From a virus (Duplodnaviria; Heunggongvirae; Uroviricota; Caudoviricetes), in the IMG/VR virus record IMGVR_UViG_2563366924_000006, positions 1-28,035 of that record: a stretch of 28,035 bases of DNA; one strand, written 5' to 3'. The stretch's first letter is position 1; each line of letters opens with the position of its first letter. This document shows positions 22,377 through 28,035 of this stretch, piece after piece. The notes beneath the pieces were generated by a model that worked only from the letters and a program-made list of their open reading frames with translations, was not told the DNA's origin and did not search any database. A program made the translations under genes and the position numbers.

Positions 22377-25031
22377 CTATTTATCCCGACTGAACACCCA
22401 GCAGCGGAATGTTTCTGGCATTCGCTGCATTTCCCCTTTGCCCTTGTTCGCCCGTTCGCTAACCGCACTACGTTTCGTCGTTTGGCCTATGAAACGTCGC
22501 TCACTGCTGCTTTTAAGGAGTTTTTTGATTTCCGTTAATGTGAAATTCATACGCTGCCGGTGAGCTGCGGCGACTTCCTCCATGTGATTAAAGTTAACGG
22601 CTATTTCACTGTCATCTGTTGAATGATTTATACCGAACGGCGCAAGTTCATCAAGATAATCAAACAGCTCCCAGAACTCCTGAACAAGTGGATGATCCTT
22701 TTTGAGTGCATGGCAGCGCTCGATGGCCAGCGCGGTGATGGCTTCACGTGTTTTATGAATACGGTCAACAGAAAGAGGCACAACAAGCGCCAGCGCTTCG
22801 AGCAACCCCGCTAATTGAGCATGGTTTTTCGCTACACGGATATGACGAATATCAGGGTGTGTTTCCAGTTCATTACGGGCGCGTTCATAACCACGGCCAT
22901 AAGCTTCCAGCACTTCCTGTTCTCGCATAATGGACTGCAGAGTAAAGCCTGAAACCTGGCTAACCGGTATTTGCTCAAGGCGTTCAGCTGCGTGGCGGGT
23001 ATGAATAGACTGGCCACGTTTATCGGTATAGATATGAATGATACGCTCCAGAAATGCCTTGCTGCCGTCTGTATCCGCATTCTGTGCTATCACGATAGCG
23101 CCCCGGAATGGCGGCTCGTATGTCTCGTTATTGTTAGATTTGATACCCACGGCGCGGGATGCGCGACCGTTATAAAGGGATTTCAGCTCATCCCAGTCAA
23201 AAGCGCGCTGTTTAGCATTATCCGTGGTGCGGTCACCTTCTATCAGCACTACAGGCAAATTCCCTACCTGTGCAAAGTTACGGCCACGCGCTGCAGGTGT
23301 AGATTTTGACGGGTCAAAACCTTCATATTCTTCACGGCCAGCAAGCTTCCAGAGAAATTCTATCAGGGTAGATTTACCCGTGCCGGGTTCACCGACAATT
23401 TCCAGAAACGGGAAAGATTTATCACGCTCGCGTATCTGTTCAGCAAATAACGAACCCAGCCAGAACGCCAACGCCACATATCCTTTTTCACCAAATGCCG
23501 TCCAGATATCATCCACCCAACCCGTAGTGAACTCATTCAATTTTGGATTTAGATCCAGTGATGGCGTTAGGCTCAGACTTTTAACGCTGGCACTGTTGAT
23601 TTCGAAATAATCCTCATCGTTCATCTCATACAGCTTGCCACTGCAGACCGCCACTCGGTTAAACAACCAGGCTGAATAATCTTTGTTATAGCCGATAAAA
23701 TTCTGCGTTTTCACTTCTTTGATTTCTGGAAGCCGCAACTGGATAAACTTATCCAGCTGTTTGGTACTGCCGGTGTAAACCGCACCTTTAGCAATATGCA
23801 AAAGGCGCTTTTTAAATTCTGCAGAGCTGGTCAGTTGATTCGCAGTAAACGTGTCCTTAATCGCGGGGTGATTGGGCATATTTACTTTCACGTAATACCA
23901 AGATTCATCCGTCGGCTCAGAGCGCTGGTAATACAACGGAGTCAGCCAGCAGTTGGCGATTTCAGTCACGCAGCCAGATTCTTTCACTGCCCGCGCCTTG
24001 GCTTCCCATTCCATCACCACTTCCTGCCCGGAATTAGCGATACGGTCATAGGCTCTCATGTATCTGTCCAGGTCCAGTTCGAACCAGTACATGCGGGAAC
24101 CATGCTCAAAATAGAAGGAATGCCACTCATTATGCTGATGCATCAGCAGGGCTTTTTCAGTCGGGCTTTTTGCCAGCAGAAGATCGCCAAAATAACGATA
24201 GTTTTTGATGTCCGATTTGCTAAATCTGTCGCGGATTAGCAGGTCATTCCAGTCAAGTTCAACTGCTGTTTTGAGCGGCTGCGCCGCCCGGACATCCCAG
24301 CCAGCAGACTTGCTGCGTGATGCAAATGAAAGGGTGTGTTTCGTTCCGGCCTTATCGCCATCAAAGGCCCAAACCAGACGTGGCCGGGGTTTCTCACCCA
24401 GTTCTTTAGCCAGCGCATCGAGCGAGGCCAGAGGATAGTTATTGCTACTGAGTGTAGCCACAGCGGGTAAACCGGCCTGGCATAAACTGAGAGCGTTAAA
24501 AATACCCTCAGTTATCCAGATTTCTTTTGCATCAGGCAGGTGGATAAACGGCGGCACCCACCAGTGACCACCGTAATTGCCTGAGAAATGCGCCTTCTGT
24601 TTGAAACGGTCTGGCTGGTCAATGATGCGCTCCCATGTAGCGCCGTTGGCCAGCTTAAATTTAACAGTGGCACTACCCAGCCCATGACGGACAAACGCGC
24701 CCTGGGTAAAACAACCTTTGAGAATGTCAGTATCAAGGCCACGCGCTTCACGTAAATACGCTTCTGCCGCAGCAGCCGGTGATTCGACTGTTGCGACATA
24801 CCGCTTTGACCAGTCCTCAAAAATATCGGAATACAGCTCTTTGACTGCGACCTCCTTACCGCATTTATTTTCACGGCCACATTTAAGAAGCCAGGGCTTT
24901 TCCGCACTGGTAAATAGTTCGCGTTTCTGGCAAGCAGGGCAAACACCCTGCTGTAAATATTTATCTTTCTCTTTAAATTCAAAATCATTAATGAGACGGC
25001 GAACAACTTCCTGTTGTATGGATACGTTCAT
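22377..25031 (-). CDS. Phage P4 alpha-type primase-helicase replication protein
   Basis: 884 aa; N-terminal zinc-ribbon (CPACQ...CGRENKCG), primase/Toprim-like acidic region (EGIFNALS, WAFDGDKAG), Walker A GEPGTGKST in the central helicase-like domain, long C-terminal domain. Confidence 0.85.
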   Translation of the reverse strand: MNVSIQQEVVRRLINDFEFKEKDKYLQQGVCPACQKRELFTSAEKPWLLKCGRENKCGKEVAVKELYSDIFEDWSKRYVATVESPAAAAEAYLREARGLDTDILKGCFTQGAFVRHGLGSATVKFKLANGATWERIIDQPDRFKQKAHFSGNYGGHWWVPPFIHLPDAKEIWITEGIFNALSLCQAGLPAVATLSSNNYPLASLDALAKELGEKPRPRLVWAFDGDKAGTKHTLSFASRSKSAGWDVRAAQPLKTAVELDWNDLLIRDRFSKSDIKNYRYFGDLLLAKSPTEKALLMHQHNEWHSFYFEHGSRMYWFELDLDRYMRAYDRIANSGQEVVMEWEAKARAVKESGCVTEIANCWLTPLYYQRSEPTDESWYYVKVNMPNHPAIKDTFTANQLTSSAEFKKRLLHIAKGAVYTGSTKQLDKFIQLRLPEIKEVKTQNFIGYNKDYSAWLFNRVAVCSGKLYEMNDEDYFEINSASVKSLSLTPSLDLNPKLNEFTTGWVDDIWTAFGEKGYVALAFWLGSLFAEQIRERDKSFPFLEIVGEPGTGKSTLIEFLWKLAGREEYEGFDPSKSTPAARGRNFAQVGNLPVVLIEGDRTTDNAKQRAFDWDELKSLYNGRASRAVGIKSNNNETYEPPFRGAIVIAQNADTDGSKAFLERIIHIYTDKRGQSIHTRHAAERLEQIPVSQVSGFTLQSIMREQEVLEAYGRGYERARNELETHPDIRHIRVAKNHAQLAGLLEALALVVPLSVDRIHKTREAITALAIERCHALKKDHPLVQEFWELFDYLDELAPFGINHSTDDSEIAVNFNHMEEVAAAHRQRMNFTLTEIKKLLKSSSERRFIGQTTKRSAVSERANKGKGEMQRMPETFRCWVFSRDK

Positions 25032-25071: not shown

Positions 25072-25290
25072 TCAGAATTTTATCTGTTTGTTATACCGCT
25101 CATGCGTCATTAATACCCAACGCTGACCTTTATCTTTACTAAGTAAACGCCAGCGTAAAGAAACATGAATAGATAAGTAATGTTTTGGTTTAATGACCTG
25201 ATAAACTTTTCTGCCATCGTAGTATTCACTAAGCATTGAAAATGACTTGTTAATGACATTTTCATTTGCATGAGAAGTCACAATTAACAT
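25072..25290 (-). CDS. Small basic hypothetical protein (54-72 aa) in the AT-rich cargo block
   Basis: ORF starts immediately after the stop of the exonuclease gene; very AT-rich; no clear ribosome-binding site; no family recognised. Confidence 0.3.
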   Translation of the reverse strand: MLIVTSHANENVINKSFSMLSEYYDGRKVYQVIKPKHYLSIHVSLRWRLLSKDKGQRWVLMTHERYNKQIKF

Positions 25291-25292
25291 AG

Positions 25293-25853
25293 CTATTTCA
25301 CACTGTTTTTTATGCCAAGGAACATCCAGATATAAGAAACAATTTTGATATTATGAAGCGCATGTGCCAGTGAGTTACGCTGAAAGTCATATTTAATAAT
25401 GCTATTCATATTCAGCCCAAGTTCTTCTGCTATTGTCACCATGGTAATGACACTCTGCTCATTAGCTTCAAGAAAACACTGACCGGCGAACCTGTCCAGG
25501 TAATGATGTATCACCTTGCTATGCATGGACGGACAACCAAACCAGGTCTTGACGTATTTGGCATCAGAATTTTCAATGATAAACCCGTACAGGTCACAGA
25601 TAGCCAGCTCAATATCCTGACAATCATCATCCAGTATCTGACTGCGAACCTCTGAAGGCTGACGTAACCACCACTGGATAGCGTGGGCACTTACCGTACC
25701 GCCATTACTCATACAGTCATCAAGGCTGATACGTCTGTAGAATTGCTTACCAACCTCCCCAGTTGTAGGGTCAAAGAAAACGGCGCTTAAACCCGTAATA
25801 GCTGCGGTGTGCTTTTCGTCCATCAGTTCTACATCAATCATTAAATGTTGCAT
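25293..25853 (-). CDS. 3'-5' exonuclease, T4 DexA-like (DEDD-type)
   Basis: From the ATG at 25853 (AAGGA ribosome-binding site): MQHLMIDVELMDEKHTAAITGLSAVFFDP... resembles the recalled T4 DexA N-terminus (DFETMG..EKAAVIDLSVIAFDP); second block HAIQWWLRQPSEVRSQI versus STIEWWKNQSPEARKNI. The ORF track N-terminal extension to 25973 is hydrophobic and lacks a ribosome-binding site. Confidence 0.65.
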   Translation of the reverse strand: MQHLMIDVELMDEKHTAAITGLSAVFFDPTTGEVGKQFYRRISLDDCMSNGGTVSAHAIQWWLRQPSEVRSQILDDDCQDIELAICDLYGFIIENSDAKYVKTWFGCPSMHSKVIHHYLDRFAGQCFLEANEQSVITMVTIAEELGLNMNSIIKYDFQRNSLAHALHNIKIVSYIWMFLGIKNSVK

Positions 25854-25866
25854 GTGGATATCCTTA

Positions 25867-26199
25867 TCAGGAAACGTGGCGAGAATTGGAGGAAGTATTA
25901 CGCTTACGCGCAACACTATTAGCAGCCAGAGATATAAGGCCGGGAACACTGCTTTCTTCAGGAACCTGACCACTGAACACCATTAATGTGATGGTGTGCA
26001 ATTCTTCATAGTCTGTTATGTCATTATTAAAATGCGCAGATGACGAAATACCTTCAAGGCATTTTGCCAATTTGATATTCAACTCCATCAACTGCAAAGC
26101 ATCGCTATGAATAGCTGACTGGTCAGTATTGATGTTTTCAATTTGATTATGATAATTCTGCAACAAACTACGAATTATCGTGGCGTATTTTGCTTTCAT
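25867..26199 (-). CDS. Hypothetical early protein (about 110 aa) in the AT-rich cargo block
   Basis: First gene after cox on the same strand; AT-rich; basic Ser-rich C-terminus; start uncertain (ATG at 26199 or GTG at 26232); no family recognised. Confidence 0.35.
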   Translation of the reverse strand: MKAKYATIIRSLLQNYHNQIENINTDQSAIHSDALQLMELNIKLAKCLEGISSSAHFNNDITDYEELHTITLMVFSGQVPEESSVPGLISLAANSVARKRNTSSNSRHVS

Positions 26200-26275: not shown

Positions 26276-26572
26276 TTATTGTTTCGCATTCTGCTGTTTC
26301 ATTTTTTCAGTAGTGAATAGGCGGTTTTTCCAGTCATGCCACTCAGGCGGGGCATTCTGTGCCAAGTGGGCAACATATGCATCCCACTCACCTTTATGAA
26401 TATAAACCTCGCCACCTTTTTTTGATGGGTTTAAAGGGTCTTTCATTCGGATTACCGGCAATTTACCAGCTGTCGCCATTTTTCGAATTGCTGCCGGAGT
26501 TTTACCTACATATGCAGCAAAAAGTTCTGGCGTCACAAGGTCTGAAAGCGCGTTTTCGGCTAGTTCTTTCAT
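26276..26572 (-). CDS. cox: Cox-like excisionase / early regulatory protein
   Basis: 98 aa; ...AAIRKMATAGKLPVIRMKDPLNPSKKGGEVYIH...PPEWHDWKNRL resembles recalled P2 Cox (GAVRRMIDKGKLPVIDMTDPQSASGRAGEYWVY...IRDGWLMWLGL); GGAGGA ribosome-binding site; divergent from C. Confidence 0.85.
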   Translation of the reverse strand: MKELAENALSDLVTPELFAAYVGKTPAAIRKMATAGKLPVIRMKDPLNPSKKGGEVYIHKGEWDAYVAHLAQNAPPEWHDWKNRLFTTEKMKQQNAKQ

Positions 26573-26670
26573 CTGTGGTATCCTCCATCAGTTTGGGTTC
26601 CTAAGGCGTTTTAAGTCGTCCTAGGGTTTATTTAGTCAGAAATAACTGACCTAATGATAGTCAGAAGGTT
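26573..26670. promoter_or_regulatory. Lysis-lysogeny switch region between cox (-) and C (+), with candidate operator repeats
   Basis: 98-bp AT-rich intergenic region; direct repeats TAGTCAGAA at about 26633-26641 and 26658-26666 (25 bp centre to centre), a related TAAGTCGTC at about 26612, and a small palindrome GTCAG-N6-CTGAC at about 26635-26650. Confidence 0.6.
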
Positions 26671-26976
26671 ATGACCATGTCAATGAGCTATGCTCAAAAA
26701 TTAAAGAGTATCCGTGCAGCAGAAGGGCTAACGCAAAAACAGCTGTCAGAGCTAACAGGCGTAAGTTTGGGAATGATTAAAAACTACGAAAGTGAACAGC
26801 ATCCAGCTGGCGTTCAGACAGTTGAAAAAGTGATACAGGTCGAAAGGTTCGAAAAATATACACTCTGGTTAATGACGGGAAAAACAGCCCCTGCAGCGGG
26901 TCAAGTTTCTCCGCCTCTCTCCCCTGATGGGCAAGACAAAATAAAATCGCGCCCCTCAGACCAGAAAACTGGCTAA
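26671..26976 (+). CDS. C: Immunity repressor, P2 C-like
   Basis: 101 aa (P2 C is 99 aa); FEKYTLWLMTGKTAPAAGQVSPPLSPDGQ...SDQKTG resembles recalled P2 C FTKYTLWFMTNQIAPESGQIAPALAHFGQ...SGQKTG; HTH-like segment LTQKQLSELTGVSLGMIKNYE. Confidence 0.85.
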   Translation: MTMSMSYAQKLKSIRAAEGLTQKQLSELTGVSLGMIKNYESEQHPAGVQTVEKVIQVERFEKYTLWLMTGKTAPAAGQVSPPLSPDGQDKIKSRPSDQKTG

Positions 26977-27042
26977 TTATCTGGTTTTTCTATTCTTTAT
27001 CACAAAAATTACACAATGATTTTAACATCGGAGGGCTTCGCT

Positions 27043-28035
27043 ATGTCGATTAAGAAGCTTGATGATGGTCGTTTTGAAGTGGATGTAAGACCGCGCGGGA
27101 CTTCAGGAAGAAGAATCCGGCGTAAATTTGACAGAAAGGCAGAGGCCCAGACATTTGAGCGGTACGTACTGACAAACTTTCACGATAAAGAATGGCAGGA
27201 CAAACCGGCAGATCAAAGGCTCGTATCTGAATTGATTACTTTATGGTGGAGTTATCACGGGAAAAATCACAACTATGGTGATTCTTACCGAAAGCGTCTG
27301 GAGAAGATCCACCGCGAAATGGGCGAACCCAGAATCTACATGCTGACCCGTAACTTTTTGATGAAGTATCGCGCTACCAGGTTGCAAAGCGGTGTATCAG
27401 CAGGAACGGTAAACAGAGATTTCAGTGCTATGTCCAGCATGTTTAGCCTGCTGATCGACATGGAAGAATTCCACCATGAAAATCCCTTCCATAGCGTGCG
27501 TAAGCTGAAACTGGAAAACACAGAAATGTCGTTCCTGTCAGAGGATGAAGCTCGGGAATTGCTGAATGCTTTGACTGATGATGACCGCAGAGTTGTAGTC
27601 CTCAGCCTGAATACAGGTGCGAGGTGGGGGGAAGCCAGCAATCTCAAGGCTGAACATGTTATCAGTAATAAGGTGACTTTTGTGAAGACCAAAACAGGCC
27701 CAGCGCGTACCGTTCCGGTTTCACAGGAGGTTGCTGATTATATCCTCACCCGGAAATCAGGAAAGCTTTTTAAAACTGACTACCAGCGCGTTCGTGAGGT
27801 GCTTCGTAAGATAAAGCCCGATTTACCTAAAGGTCAGGCACTGCATGTTTTGCGGCACACCTTCGCAACTCATTTCATGATCAATGGCGGGAATATCATT
27901 ACCCTTCAGAGAATACTGGGGCATACAACGATTGAGCAAACCATGACGTACGCTCACTTTGCCCCGGACTATCTGGCTGATGCAATCAGGTTTAATCCCA
28001 TGAAAGGGAGTGTCCATATAACGTCCACTGACTAG
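27043..28035 (+). CDS. int: Tyrosine integrase, P2 Int-like
   Basis: 330 aa from the ATG at 27043 (GGAGGG ribosome-binding site): MSIKKLDDGRFEVDVRPRG... resembles recalled P2 Int MAIKKLDDGRYEVDIRP; catalytic region LSLNTGARWGEASNLKAEHV, HVLRHTFATHFMINGG and the Tyr in TMTYAHF; TAG stop is the last codon of the window. Confidence 0.9.
   Translation: MSIKKLDDGRFEVDVRPRGTSGRRIRRKFDRKAEAQTFERYVLTNFHDKEWQDKPADQRLVSELITLWWSYHGKNHNYGDSYRKRLEKIHREMGEPRIYMLTRNFLMKYRATRLQSGVSAGTVNRDFSAMSSMFSLLIDMEEFHHENPFHSVRKLKLENTEMSFLSEDEARELLNALTDDDRRVVVLSLNTGARWGEASNLKAEHVISNKVTFVKTKTGPARTVPVSQEVADYILTRKSGKLFKTDYQRVREVLRKIKPDLPKGQALHVLRHTFATHFMINGGNIITLQRILGHTTIEQTMTYAHFAPDYLADAIRFNPMKGSVHITSTD

What the first reader, a model, noticed from the sequence alone, without database searches (positions are those of the whole stretch)
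26573..26670. Candidate C-repressor operators: direct repeats TAGTCAGAA in the cox-C switch region
The P2 C repressor is known to bind directly repeated half-sites rather than a palindrome. The 98-bp divergent region here has two identical 9-mers 25 bp apart, plus a third related copy and a short palindrome, in positions that could overlap the early promoter driving cox.
Basis: partly seen in the sequence, partly recalled or inferred. Interest (0 to 1): 0.35.

Follow-up and report, generated by a model that had tools for sequence, protein, structure and literature searches.

The report
Paired palindromic repressor operators, P2-like prophage
The two repeated 9-mers are real. They are most likely parts of two 16-bp palindromic binding sites through which the prophage's P2-type C repressor shuts off the early (lytic) promoter, an ordinary kind of element whose sites are symmetric, unlike the textbook P2 case.

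Summary
Observation confirmed. TAGTCAGAA occurs exactly twice in the window, at 26633-41 and 26658-66, 25 bp apart. A repeat this long arose in 67 of 5000 shuffles of the spacer.

The setting is a P2-type lysis/lysogeny switch:
- cox (Pfam Phage_Cox) reads leftward.
- A 99-aa C repressor, colinear with P2 C (PDB 2XCJ), reads rightward and is followed by int.
- A near-consensus early promoter Pe lies on the minus strand (TTGACA 26683-78, N18, TATCAT 26659-54).

Each 9-mer is one arm of a larger dyad:
- Site I is GTCAGaaggttATGAC (26660-75) and fills the Pe spacer.
- Site II is GTCAGaaataaCTGAC (26635-50) and covers the predicted Pe start.
- These are the only two matches to GTCAG-N6-CTGAC (at most 1 mismatch) in 28 kb.

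Comparative support:
- About 17 of 21 heteroimmune relatives show the same layout with different half-site sequences.
- Site I is centred 10.5 nt after the -35 hexamer in nearly all of them.
- The half-site sequence tracks the recognition helix.
- The sites lie inside a swapped immunity cassette (about 26590-26852).

Best reading: two C dimers bind, one per dyad, and occlude Pe. The cox-proximal repeats (YTWRGK x5, period 9-10 bp) are probable Cox boxes. The Pc promoter is only tentatively placed.

This is a new immunity type of a known system. No binding was tested. Interest is modest.

The parts
26635..26650 (.). Operator site II (O2-like): GTCAGaaataaCTGAC, perfect 5-bp inverted arms with a 6-bp centre. 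It covers about -3 to +13 of the predicted Pe transcript.
   Evidence: This is one of the only two matches in the window. The same position holds a 4-5/5 dyad in about 17 of 21 heteroimmune relatives.
26660..26675 (.). Operator site I (O1-like): GTCAGaaggttATGAC, arms matching 4/5. It fills the Pe spacer between the -35 and -10 hexamers (about -28 to -13). Its centre is 10.5 nt after the -35 hexamer. It contains the C ribosome-binding site.
   Evidence: The dyad centre sits at 10.5 +/- 1 nt after the -35 hexamer in nearly all relatives.
26633..26641 (+). It is the cox-proximal arm of site II plus flanking bases. Its first bases overlap the fifth Cox-box-like repeat (TTTAGT, 26631-36).
26658..26666 (+). 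It is the arm of site I nearest the -10 hexamer. Its TA is shared with the Pe -10 hexamer and its GAA runs into the C Shine-Dalgarno sequence.
26678..26683 (-). Pe -35 hexamer, TTGACA. It overlaps codons 1-3 of C (ATGTCAA), as in P2.
   Evidence: It is conserved in all relatives examined.
26654..26659 (-). Pe -10 hexamer, TATCAT, 18-nt spacer. The transcription start is predicted near 26647, reading toward cox.
   Evidence: The start site is inferred from the hexamer position, not measured.
26677..26976 (+). C immunity repressor gene, 99 aa. The Shine-Dalgarno sequence GAAGG is at 26664-68. The upstream in-frame ATG at 26671 is part of the half-site ATGAC and is probably not a start codon.
   Evidence: The protein aligns 1-99 with P2 C (PDB 2XCJ/2L49), E 6e-18. 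It matches phrog_147. The exact 99-aa product is on record in E. coli, while the 101-aa form is not.
26276..26572 (-). cox gene, 98 aa: lytic repressor and excision factor, first gene of the early operon.
   Evidence: Pfam Phage_Cox, E 3.4e-25; phrog_1831 and phrog_272
26592..26636 (+). Five YTWRGK repeats at 26592, 26601, 26611, 26621 and 26631 (TTTGGG, CTAAGG, TTAAGT, CTAGGG, TTTAGT), period 9-10 bp. They are candidate Cox boxes and include the CCTAGG palindrome.
   Evidence: Five copies were reached in 1 of 5000 shuffles. The array is conserved in loci whose Cox is 55-98% identical and absent where Cox is 21-29% identical. P2 cox-boxes recur every 10-11 bp (PMC3936717).
26576..26584 (+). 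Tentative Pc promoter: extended -10 element TGgTATCCT. The predicted start is near 26591, which would give about 57 nt of overlap with the Pe transcript.
   Evidence: It is the top plus-strand candidate in a position-weight scan and is conserved as TGnTAnCCT in relatives. The same scan recovers the annotated P2 Pc. In WPhi it finds TGtTACCCT at a position consistent with the published 82-nt overlap (PMC1904263). Caveat: it overlaps the cox ribosome-binding site.
26590..26852 (.). Immunity cassette: the segment that is 37-77% identical per 30-column bin to L002 and L003, which are mostly >=87% identical (80-100% per bin) on both sides. It holds both operator sites and C residues 1 to about 58.
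   Evidence: Cox is 96-98% identical to these loci while C is 65-70% identical.
27016..28035 (+). Integrase gene, running off the window end. Other assemblies call the start at 27043.

Best explanation
The region is the lysis/lysogeny switch of an uncharacterised immunity type of P2-like (Peduoviridae-type) prophage found in E. coli.

Proposed mechanism (inferred, not measured):
- The C repressor is a 99-aa helix-turn-helix protein that, by homology with P2 C, forms a symmetric dimer.
- It binds two 16-bp dyad-symmetric operators whose centres are 25 bp apart.
- Site I is GTCAGaaggttATGAC (26660-75), in the spacer of the early promoter Pe.
- Site II is GTCAGaaataaCTGAC (26635-50), over the Pe start site.
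- One dimer sits on each dyad. Each recognition helix reads an RGTCAK half-site, and the half-sites are 11 bp (one helical turn) apart.
- Occupying both sites excludes RNA polymerase from Pe and so silences cox and the early operon.

The other arms are GGTCAG and GGTCAT on the minus strand.

The opposing regulator, Cox, probably binds the five 10-bp-periodic YTWRGK repeats at 26592-26636, between the candidate Pc promoter and site II.

What is shown: the sequence elements, their statistics, their conservation and their covariation with the proteins. What is inferred: binding, stoichiometry, transcription start sites and repression.
For: 1. Gene context. Pfam Phage_Cox E 3.4e-25, an HTH_3 repressor and an integrase. 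C matches phrog_147. It is 49.5% identical to WPhi C by tblastn and aligns with P2 C over residues 1-99 (2XCJ, E 6e-18).
2. Promoter. Pe matches consensus 11/12. Its -35 hexamer overlaps the C start codon exactly as annotated in P2. The arrangement is conserved in every relative examined.
3. Sites. The combined repeat-plus-dyad score is 18/20, reached by 0 of 300 shuffles. GTCAG-N6-CTGAC with at most 1 mismatch occurs only twice in 28 kb, both times here.
4. My own estimate. Beyond the 9-mer, the independent matches number 9 of 10, about 2e-4 after allowing for 6 registers.
5. Relatives. About 17 of 21 heteroimmune types have the same architecture with different half-sites. Site I is centred 10.5 nt after the -35 hexamer. 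Site II is a 4-5/5 dyad lying 24-34 bp further on.
6. Covariation. Half-sites follow helix 3. The motif SLG[MTS]IKNY goes with GTCA[G/T/A] in WIN, L001, L054, L004, L058 and L057. HIGTIKNY goes with GTCG[T/C] in L047.
7. Closest relative. L001 (C 87% identical) keeps 26629-26686 with a single mismatch, while 14 of 42 positions differ in the adjacent spacer.
8. Cassette. The sites lie in the segment swapped relative to L002 and L003, whose Cox is 96-98% identical.
9. Literature. P2 C is a symmetric dimer built to contact two consecutive major grooves, with two dimers per operator (PMC2995052). The P2 C footprint shows four protected segments (PMC1904263). Published repeat spacings are 22-34 bp (PMC1904268).
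Against: - There are no binding, footprint, reporter or transcript data for this phage. Everything rests on sequence.
- The three characterised C operators (P2, P2 Hy dis, WPhi) are described as non-palindromic. In my test P2 and WPhi score weakly for dyad symmetry (36/300 and 60/300 shuffles). Homology alone therefore does not predict palindromic sites.
- Site I is imperfect, and its arm nearest the -10 hexamer overlaps the -10 hexamer and the C Shine-Dalgarno sequence. The same TAGTCAGAGG occurs at that position in L047, whose other half-sites are GTCG-type. Part of copy 2 may therefore be kept for promoter or ribosome-binding reasons, or by recent ancestry.
- The GGT of the arm next to the -35 hexamer is shared family-wide, as ACC before the ATG.
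- The close copies (L077-L082) show no variation in the spacer, so they give no independent test.
Confidence: 0.75

Rival explanations
1. P2-style recognition of direct repeats. Only the TAGTCAGAA 9-mers are read specifically, by one helix of each dimer. The second helix makes non-specific contacts, and the inverted GGTCA arms are incidental.
For: This is the published model for P2 C (PMC2995052) and for all three characterised immunity classes (PMC1904268). The 9-bp length, the 25-bp spacing and the position flanking the Pe -10 hexamer all fit that range.
Against: The inverted arms match 5/5 and 4/5 at a fixed N6 spacing. The same dyad architecture recurs with different sequences in about 17 of 21 relatives. 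All four half-sites change together with helix 3.
Confidence: 0.12
2. The repeat is a by-product of overlapping unrelated signals (the Pe -10 hexamer, the C ribosome-binding site, a Cox box) or of chance, and is not a repressor site.
For: The 9-mer alone is only modestly unlikely (67/5000). The TA of copy 2 is part of the -10 hexamer and its GAA leads into the Shine-Dalgarno sequence. The TAG of copy 1 lies in the conserved TATTTAG of the Cox-box module. TAGTCAGAGG persists in the heteroimmune L047.
Against: The GTCAG core is not explained by those signals. It occurs four times, in alternating orientation and at regular spacing. The region is nearly invariant between the window and L001 while the flanks diverge. 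Analogous self-consistent sites exist in most relatives.
Confidence: 0.05
3. The repeats are binding sites for Cox, the lytic repressor and excision factor, rather than for C.
For: Cox proteins bind arrays of direct repeats in this same intergenic region (PMC3936717).
Against: Cox boxes recur every 10-11 bp, not every 25 bp. L002 and L003 have Cox 96-98% identical to the window's but lack TAGTCAGAA and GTCAG dyads. A separate 10-bp-periodic array at 26592-26636 covaries with Cox.
Confidence: 0.04
4. The inverted repeats act as RNA hairpins in the Pc (C mRNA) leader or in the region of overlapping transcripts. They would control C translation or act as a terminator.
For: The scan reports a terminator-like hairpin on the minus strand at 26664-26646. 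The minimum-free-energy fold of the leader contains the GUCAG/CUGAC stem.
Against: Folding energy is not unusual (z = -1.09; 27 of 200 shuffles fold at least as well). There is no Rfam match. The minus-strand hairpin lies upstream of the predicted Pe start. RNA hairpins would not need the same arm sequence in both sites, nor covariation with the recognition helix.
Confidence: 0.03

Closest known systems
Bacteriophage P2 operator O1/O2 at Pe (C repressor, PDB 2XCJ)
   Same: - The gene order int-C / cox is the same.
- The Pe -35 TTGACA overlaps the C start codon.
- There are two repeated sites, one in the Pe spacer and one at the start site.
- The repressor is a homologous 99-aa protein, colinear over residues 1-99.
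   Different: - P2 repeats are 8 bp (GTTTAGAT), 22 bp apart, and are described as non-palindromic. They score weakly for dyad symmetry.
- Here the repeats are arms of 16-bp dyads 25 bp apart, with an unrelated sequence.
- By eye the alignment shows the C proteins identical at under half of positions (not computed), so this is a different immunity class.
Phage WPhi and P2 Hy dis C operators
   Same: They are heteroimmune members of the same family with two repeats per operator. WPhi has 10 bp at 34 bp, flanking the -10 hexamer. Hy dis has 8 bp at 26 bp (PMC1904268). WPhi O1 abuts the -10 hexamer, as copy 2 does here.
   Different: The sequences differ, and WPhi lacks clear dyad symmetry in my test (60/300 shuffles). 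Hy dis sites flank the -35 hexamer. C here is 49.5% identical to WPhi C.
Controller protein C.Esp1396I operators and lambdoid operators (P22 c2, 434, lambda)
   Same: Symmetric HTH dimers bind palindromic sites arranged in tandem, one dimer per palindrome. Massad et al. note that P2 C superimposes on P22 c2 (RMSD 1.9 A, helices 26 A apart) and resembles C.Esp1396I (PMC2995052).
   Different: These are not homologous switch systems. C.Esp1396I sites are 15 bp centre to centre. Lambdoid repressors have C-terminal oligomerisation and RecA-cleavage domains that this 99-aa protein lacks.
P2 Cox boxes (TTAAAG/CNCA) and 186 Apl sites
   Same: The cox-proximal half of the spacer carries five direct repeats spaced one helical turn apart. 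They lie between the two promoters and covary with the Cox protein (PMC3936717, PMC7498355).
   Different: The consensus here is YTWRGK (TTAGGG-like in relatives), not the P2 box. Cox is 29% identical to P2 Cox. No binding data exist, and the attP boxes could not be examined because they lie outside the window.

Membership tests
P2-type C-repressor operator (O1/O2 at Pe) | The adjacent gene encodes a P2-family C repressor (about 99 aa, N-terminal HTH, homologous to 2XCJ). | tested here: met
   phmmer against the PDB gives 2XCJ/2L49, E 6e-18, residues 1-99 aligned to 1-99. phrog_147, E 4e-34. tblastn finds C genes of WPhi and P2-like phages.
P2-type C-repressor operator (O1/O2 at Pe) | Switch layout: C followed by int on one strand, cox leading the early operon on the other. 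| tested here: met
   Pfam Phage_Cox, HTH_3, Int_N and Phage_integrase. The gene order matches the P2 annotation.
P2-type C-repressor operator (O1/O2 at Pe) | Two directly repeated sequences of 8-10 bp, 22-34 bp centre to centre. | tested here: met
   Two exact 9-bp copies 25 bp apart. The range is taken from PMC1904268.
P2-type C-repressor operator (O1/O2 at Pe) | The repeats flank the -10 or -35 hexamer of a sigma-70 early promoter whose -35 hexamer abuts the C start. | tested here: met
   The promoter scan gives 11/12. The repeats flank the -10 hexamer. The geometry is the same as the annotated P2 features.
P2-type C-repressor operator (O1/O2 at Pe) | The half-sites are non-palindromic (pure direct repeats), as stressed for P2 and the described immunity classes. 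| tested here: not met
   Each repeat is an arm of a GTCAG-N6-CTGAC or GTCAG-N6-ATGAC dyad (5/5 and 4/5).
P2-type C-repressor operator (O1/O2 at Pe) | C protein binds the sites and represses Pe. | not testable with these tools
   This needs EMSA, footprinting or a reporter assay. Indirect support comes from half-site and helix-3 covariation and from the location inside the cassette.
P2-type C-repressor operator (O1/O2 at Pe) | A convergent weak promoter Pc whose transcript overlaps the Pe transcript. | tested here: inconclusive
   No consensus plus-strand promoter was found. A relaxed scan gives an extended -10 element, TGgTATCCT at 26576-84, conserved in relatives, but it overlaps the cox ribosome-binding site.
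Cox/Apl-type recombination-directionality-factor binding array (cox-boxes) | Four or more direct repeats spaced 10-11 bp apart between or over the switch promoters, specific to the Cox type. | tested here: met
   Five YTWRGK copies at a 9-10 bp period, reached in 1 of 5000 shuffles. They are conserved with related Cox proteins and absent with unrelated ones.
Cox/Apl-type recombination-directionality-factor binding array (cox-boxes) | A second array at attP and demonstrated Cox binding. | not testable with these tools
   attP lies beyond the right end of the window, because int runs off at 28035.

The most novel reading that the evidence does not exclude
Tandem dyad-symmetric operators may be the general and ancestral architecture of the P2 C-repressor family. 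The features are one dimer per 14-18-bp palindrome, site I centred 10.5 bp after the Pe -35 hexamer, and site II lying 24-34 bp further on. On this view the textbook 'non-palindromic direct repeats' of P2 and WPhi are degenerate cases in which one arm of each dyad has decayed. That would largely dissolve the question, called puzzling in the literature, of how a symmetric C dimer reads an asymmetric site (PMC4752584, PMC2995052). It would also supply natural operator and repressor pairs for decoding helix-3 specificity, for example WIN, L054 and L057 against L047.
Probability: 0.5. Interest if true: 0.55.

Novelty: new variant of a known kind. Interest (0 to 1): 0.38.

Why it matters
For annotation, this fixes several features of an E. 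coli prophage that has no close match in the phage collection:
- the early promoter;
- the true C start codon (26677);
- the two repressor sites;
- the probable Cox boxes;
- the limits of the exchangeable immunity cassette.

For the field, P2 C is cited as a rare symmetric HTH dimer that binds non-palindromic direct repeats. Here, and in most of about 21 heteroimmune relatives examined, the repeated units are themselves palindromes at a fixed position in Pe. This gives a simple, testable account of how the family binds DNA. It also provides a set of natural pairings between recognition helix and half-site. I found no paper in the searchable library that describes this, but I could not read the older subscription literature on the immunity classes.

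Tried and rejected
- DNA searches of the switch region. The phage collection gave only weak 72-74% matches inside the C gene. The 5,426 complete E. coli genomes gave nothing. No annotated near-identical record was available.
- Whole-window megablast against phages matched only the primase gene, at 79%.
- Look-up of the 101-aa C form found nothing. The 99-aa form was found, but its copies have identical spacers and so give no informative variation.
- The metagenome and genome scans gave no relative closer than L001, at 87%.
- A gapless 21-mer repeat test was not significant (132/2000). Its reported top-scoring pair (14/21) was in the cox-proximal array, not the operator.
- The RNA-structure explanation was rejected: fold z = -1.09 and no Rfam family.
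- The terminator-like hairpin at 26664-26646 is a by-product of adjacent half-sites and lies upstream of the Pe start.
- The alternative Pc candidate TAGTCA-N17-GATAGT was rejected because its start would fall at or after the C Shine-Dalgarno sequence.
- The WPhi switch paper (PMC113030) is not held, and the P2 Hy dis sequence was not retrieved. Hy dis was therefore not tested for dyad symmetry.
- Text searches for the operator sequence in papers found nothing.

Full report
**1. Observation**

TAGTCAGAA occurs exactly at 26633-41 and 26658-66, 25 bp apart. There is no other exact copy in the 28-kb window. A direct repeat of 9 nt or more appeared in 67 of 5000 dinucleotide-preserving shuffles of the 98-bp spacer. 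The repeat is real but only modestly improbable on its own. The only 6-bp palindrome in the spacer is CCTAGG at 26620-25.

**2. Context**

- The left gene (26276-26572, minus strand) is a Cox homologue: Pfam Phage_Cox E 3.4e-25, phrog_1831 and phrog_272.
- The right gene is a P2-family C repressor. It matches HTH_3 and phrog_147, E 4e-34. It is 49.5% identical to WPhi C.
- From ATG 26677 it aligns residue for residue, 1-99 to 1-99, with P2 C (PDB 2XCJ/2L49), E 6e-18.
- The 99-aa product is on record as an E. coli protein in 76 collection blocks, whereas the 101-aa form starting at 26671 is not.
- GAAGG at 26664-68 is a well-spaced Shine-Dalgarno sequence for 26677. I therefore take 26677 as the start codon.
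- int follows.
- The rest of the window carries a P2-type head module and myovirus tail genes.
- In draft E. coli genomes the prophage lies next to pheL and pheA.

**3. Early promoter**

The minus strand has TTGACA (26683-78), an 18-nt spacer and TATCAT (26659-54), an 11/12 match to consensus. As in the annotated P2 record, the -35 hexamer overlaps the first codons of C as ATGTCAA. TTGACA, N17/18, TAnnnT at that position is conserved in every relative examined. With the start predicted near 26647 (inference), copy 2 of the 9-mer spans about -19 to -11 and copy 1 about +7 to +15. This matches the P2 arrangement, where O1 is in the spacer and O2 is at the start. It also fits the published range of 8-10-bp repeats 22-34 bp apart (PMC1904268).

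**4. The repeat unit is larger and dyad-symmetric**

Read in the direction of Pe, the sequence is:

TTGACA tg[GTCAT aacctt CTGAC]tatcattag[GTCAG ttattt CTGAC]taa

- Site II (26635-50) is GTCAG-N6-CTGAC with perfect arms. Site I (26660-75) matches 4/5.
- The site centres are 25 bp apart. Half-sites within a site are 11 bp apart.
- A search that scores direct and inverted matches together gave 18/20, reached by 0 of 300 shuffles.
- GTCAG-N6-CTGAC with at most 1 mismatch occurs only twice in the window, both times here.
- Given the 9-mer, the independent extra matches are 9 of 10. I estimate this at about 2e-4 after allowing for six registers.
The best 'third copy' is the inverted arm TGGTCATAA.
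- The in-frame ATG at 26671 is part of the arm ATGAC.

**5. Comparative evidence**

C-encoding loci were collected from viral, genome and metagenome collections and anchored on the Pe -35 hexamer.

- About 17 of 21 heteroimmune types show the same plan with different sequences. Site I is centred 10.5 +/- 1 nt after the -35 hexamer. Site II is a 4-5/5 dyad lying 24-34 bp downstream.
- Examples are L054 (GTCAG-N6-CTGAC twice, 20/20, 34 bp), L057 (GTCAT-N6-ATGAC twice, 20/20, 30 bp), L047 (GGTCG-N8-CGACC), L008 (CTTCACC-N4-GGTGAAG) and L044 (CTTCCTATATAGGAAG twice).
- P2 and WPhi themselves score weakly (36/300 and 60/300 shuffles).
- Half-sites follow the recognition helix, residues 29-39, which alanine scanning identified as the DNA-reading helix in P2 C (PMC2995052).
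- SLG[M/T/S]IKNY goes with GTCA[G/T/A] in six loci. HIGTIKNY goes with GTCG[T/C] in L047.
- L001 (C 87% identical) keeps 26629-26686 with one mismatch, while 14 of 42 positions differ in the adjacent spacer.
- Against L002 and L003 the window is mostly >=87% identical per 30-column bin (80-100%) on both sides, but only 37-77% identical per bin across about 26590-26852.
- That exchanged cassette contains both sites and the DNA-binding half of C. Cox is 96-98% identical in those loci.

The sites therefore travel with C, not with Cox.

**6. Mechanism (inferred)**

P2 C is a symmetric dimer shaped to contact two consecutive major grooves. It resembles binders of palindromes, and two dimers are modelled per operator (PMC2995052). 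The P2 C footprint shows four protected segments (PMC1904263). Here the four RGTCAK half-sites give each helix of each dimer a specific target. I propose that one dimer binds site I and one binds site II, occluding the Pe spacer and start site. The 25-bp spacing (about 2.4 turns) varies among relatives that share the half-site (25, 30, 34 bp). This fits the reported tolerance of WPhi C to changes in spacing (PMC2995052).

**7. Other elements**

- Five YTWRGK repeats at 26592, 26601, 26611, 26621 and 26631 were matched in 1 of 5000 shuffles.
- They are conserved in loci with a related Cox and absent where Cox is unrelated.
- They recur once per helical turn, like P2 cox-boxes (PMC3936717). They are probable Cox boxes and include the CCTAGG palindrome.
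- No consensus Pc promoter was found.
- A relaxed scan that recovers the annotated P2 Pc gives an extended -10 element, TGgTATCCT, at 26576-84.
- This element is conserved as TGnTAnCCT. It matches a WPhi element placed consistently with the published 82-nt transcript overlap (PMC1904263).
- It overlaps the cox ribosome-binding site, so this assignment is tentative.

**8. Rivals**

- Pure direct-repeat recognition remains possible and can be separated only by arm mutants.
- Chance or a composite of other signals is unlikely, given sections 4 and 5.
- Cox binding is excluded by the cassette analysis.
- An RNA-hairpin role is unsupported (z = -1.09; no Rfam match).

**9. Novelty**

C here is under 60% identical to any C in the phage collection, whereas published immunity groups share at least 95% (PMC3448106). 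This is therefore a distinct immunity type of a well-known switch. The palindromic nature of the sites departs from the description of the family as binding non-palindromic direct repeats (PMC2995052, PMC4752584). No paper in the searchable library mentions such dyads. The older literature on the immunity classes could not be read.

**10. Verdict**

This is a new variant of a known kind, of modest interest.

Noticed in passing
window 25072-25290 (-): A 72-aa ORF in the early operon, between the exonuclease and primase genes, matches the Pfam ParE_like toxin domain (E 8.7e-15). I did not look for a partner antitoxin.
   Followed up: partly
window 22377-25031 (-): The replication gene is an 884-aa Toprim/DUF5906 primase (phrog_1139) rather than a P2 A/B-type module. 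It is the only part of the window with a nucleotide match in the phage collection (79% to Escherichia phage ESSI2_ev239).
   Followed up: partly
window 25293-25973 (-): This is an Rv2179c-like 3'-5' exonuclease gene in the early operon. The GTG start that gives 226 aa overlaps the upstream ORF, and other assemblies-186 aa, so the start is uncertain.
   Followed up: no
window 26590-26852, versus L002 and L003: There are sharp mosaic boundaries. Identity is mostly >=87% per 30-column bin (80-100%) on both sides and 37-77% inside. The segment looks like an exchangeable immunity cassette that holds the operators and the N-terminal 58 or so residues of C, while the C-terminal 40 residues, cox and int stay nearly identical.
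   Followed up: yes
L079-L082, 3023-3300 (context of identical C genes): In draft E. coli assemblies the prophage int end lies next to pheL and pheA. Yet the cox-C region has no megablast match in 5,426 complete E. coli genomes. The immunity type appears to be rare.
   Followed up: partly
window 26576-26584, and the same position in L001-L047, L008, L021, L044 and WPhi (L075): A TGnTAnCCT element (extended -10-like) next to the cox start is conserved across heteroimmune relatives that have unrelated Cox proteins. In WPhi it is separate from the cox ribosome-binding site, which suggests it is the Pc promoter.
   Followed up: partly
L054, L004, L058, L057 (operator regions upstream of position 1501): C proteins only 59-68% identical to the window's share the SLGxIKNY helix and GTCA-type half-sites, at 30-34 bp spacing. 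Partial cross-immunity between these prophage types is conceivable.
   Followed up: partly
L076 (P2, AF063097), O1 region: P2 O1 lies within a partial dyad, TTTAGA|TCTCAA, centred about 11.5 nt after the -35 hexamer, close to the family-wide dyad centre. O2 shows no such symmetry.
   Followed up: no
window 27016 vs 27043 (+): The integrase has two candidate ATG starts, giving 339 or 330 aa. Different assemblies call different ones.
   Followed up: no
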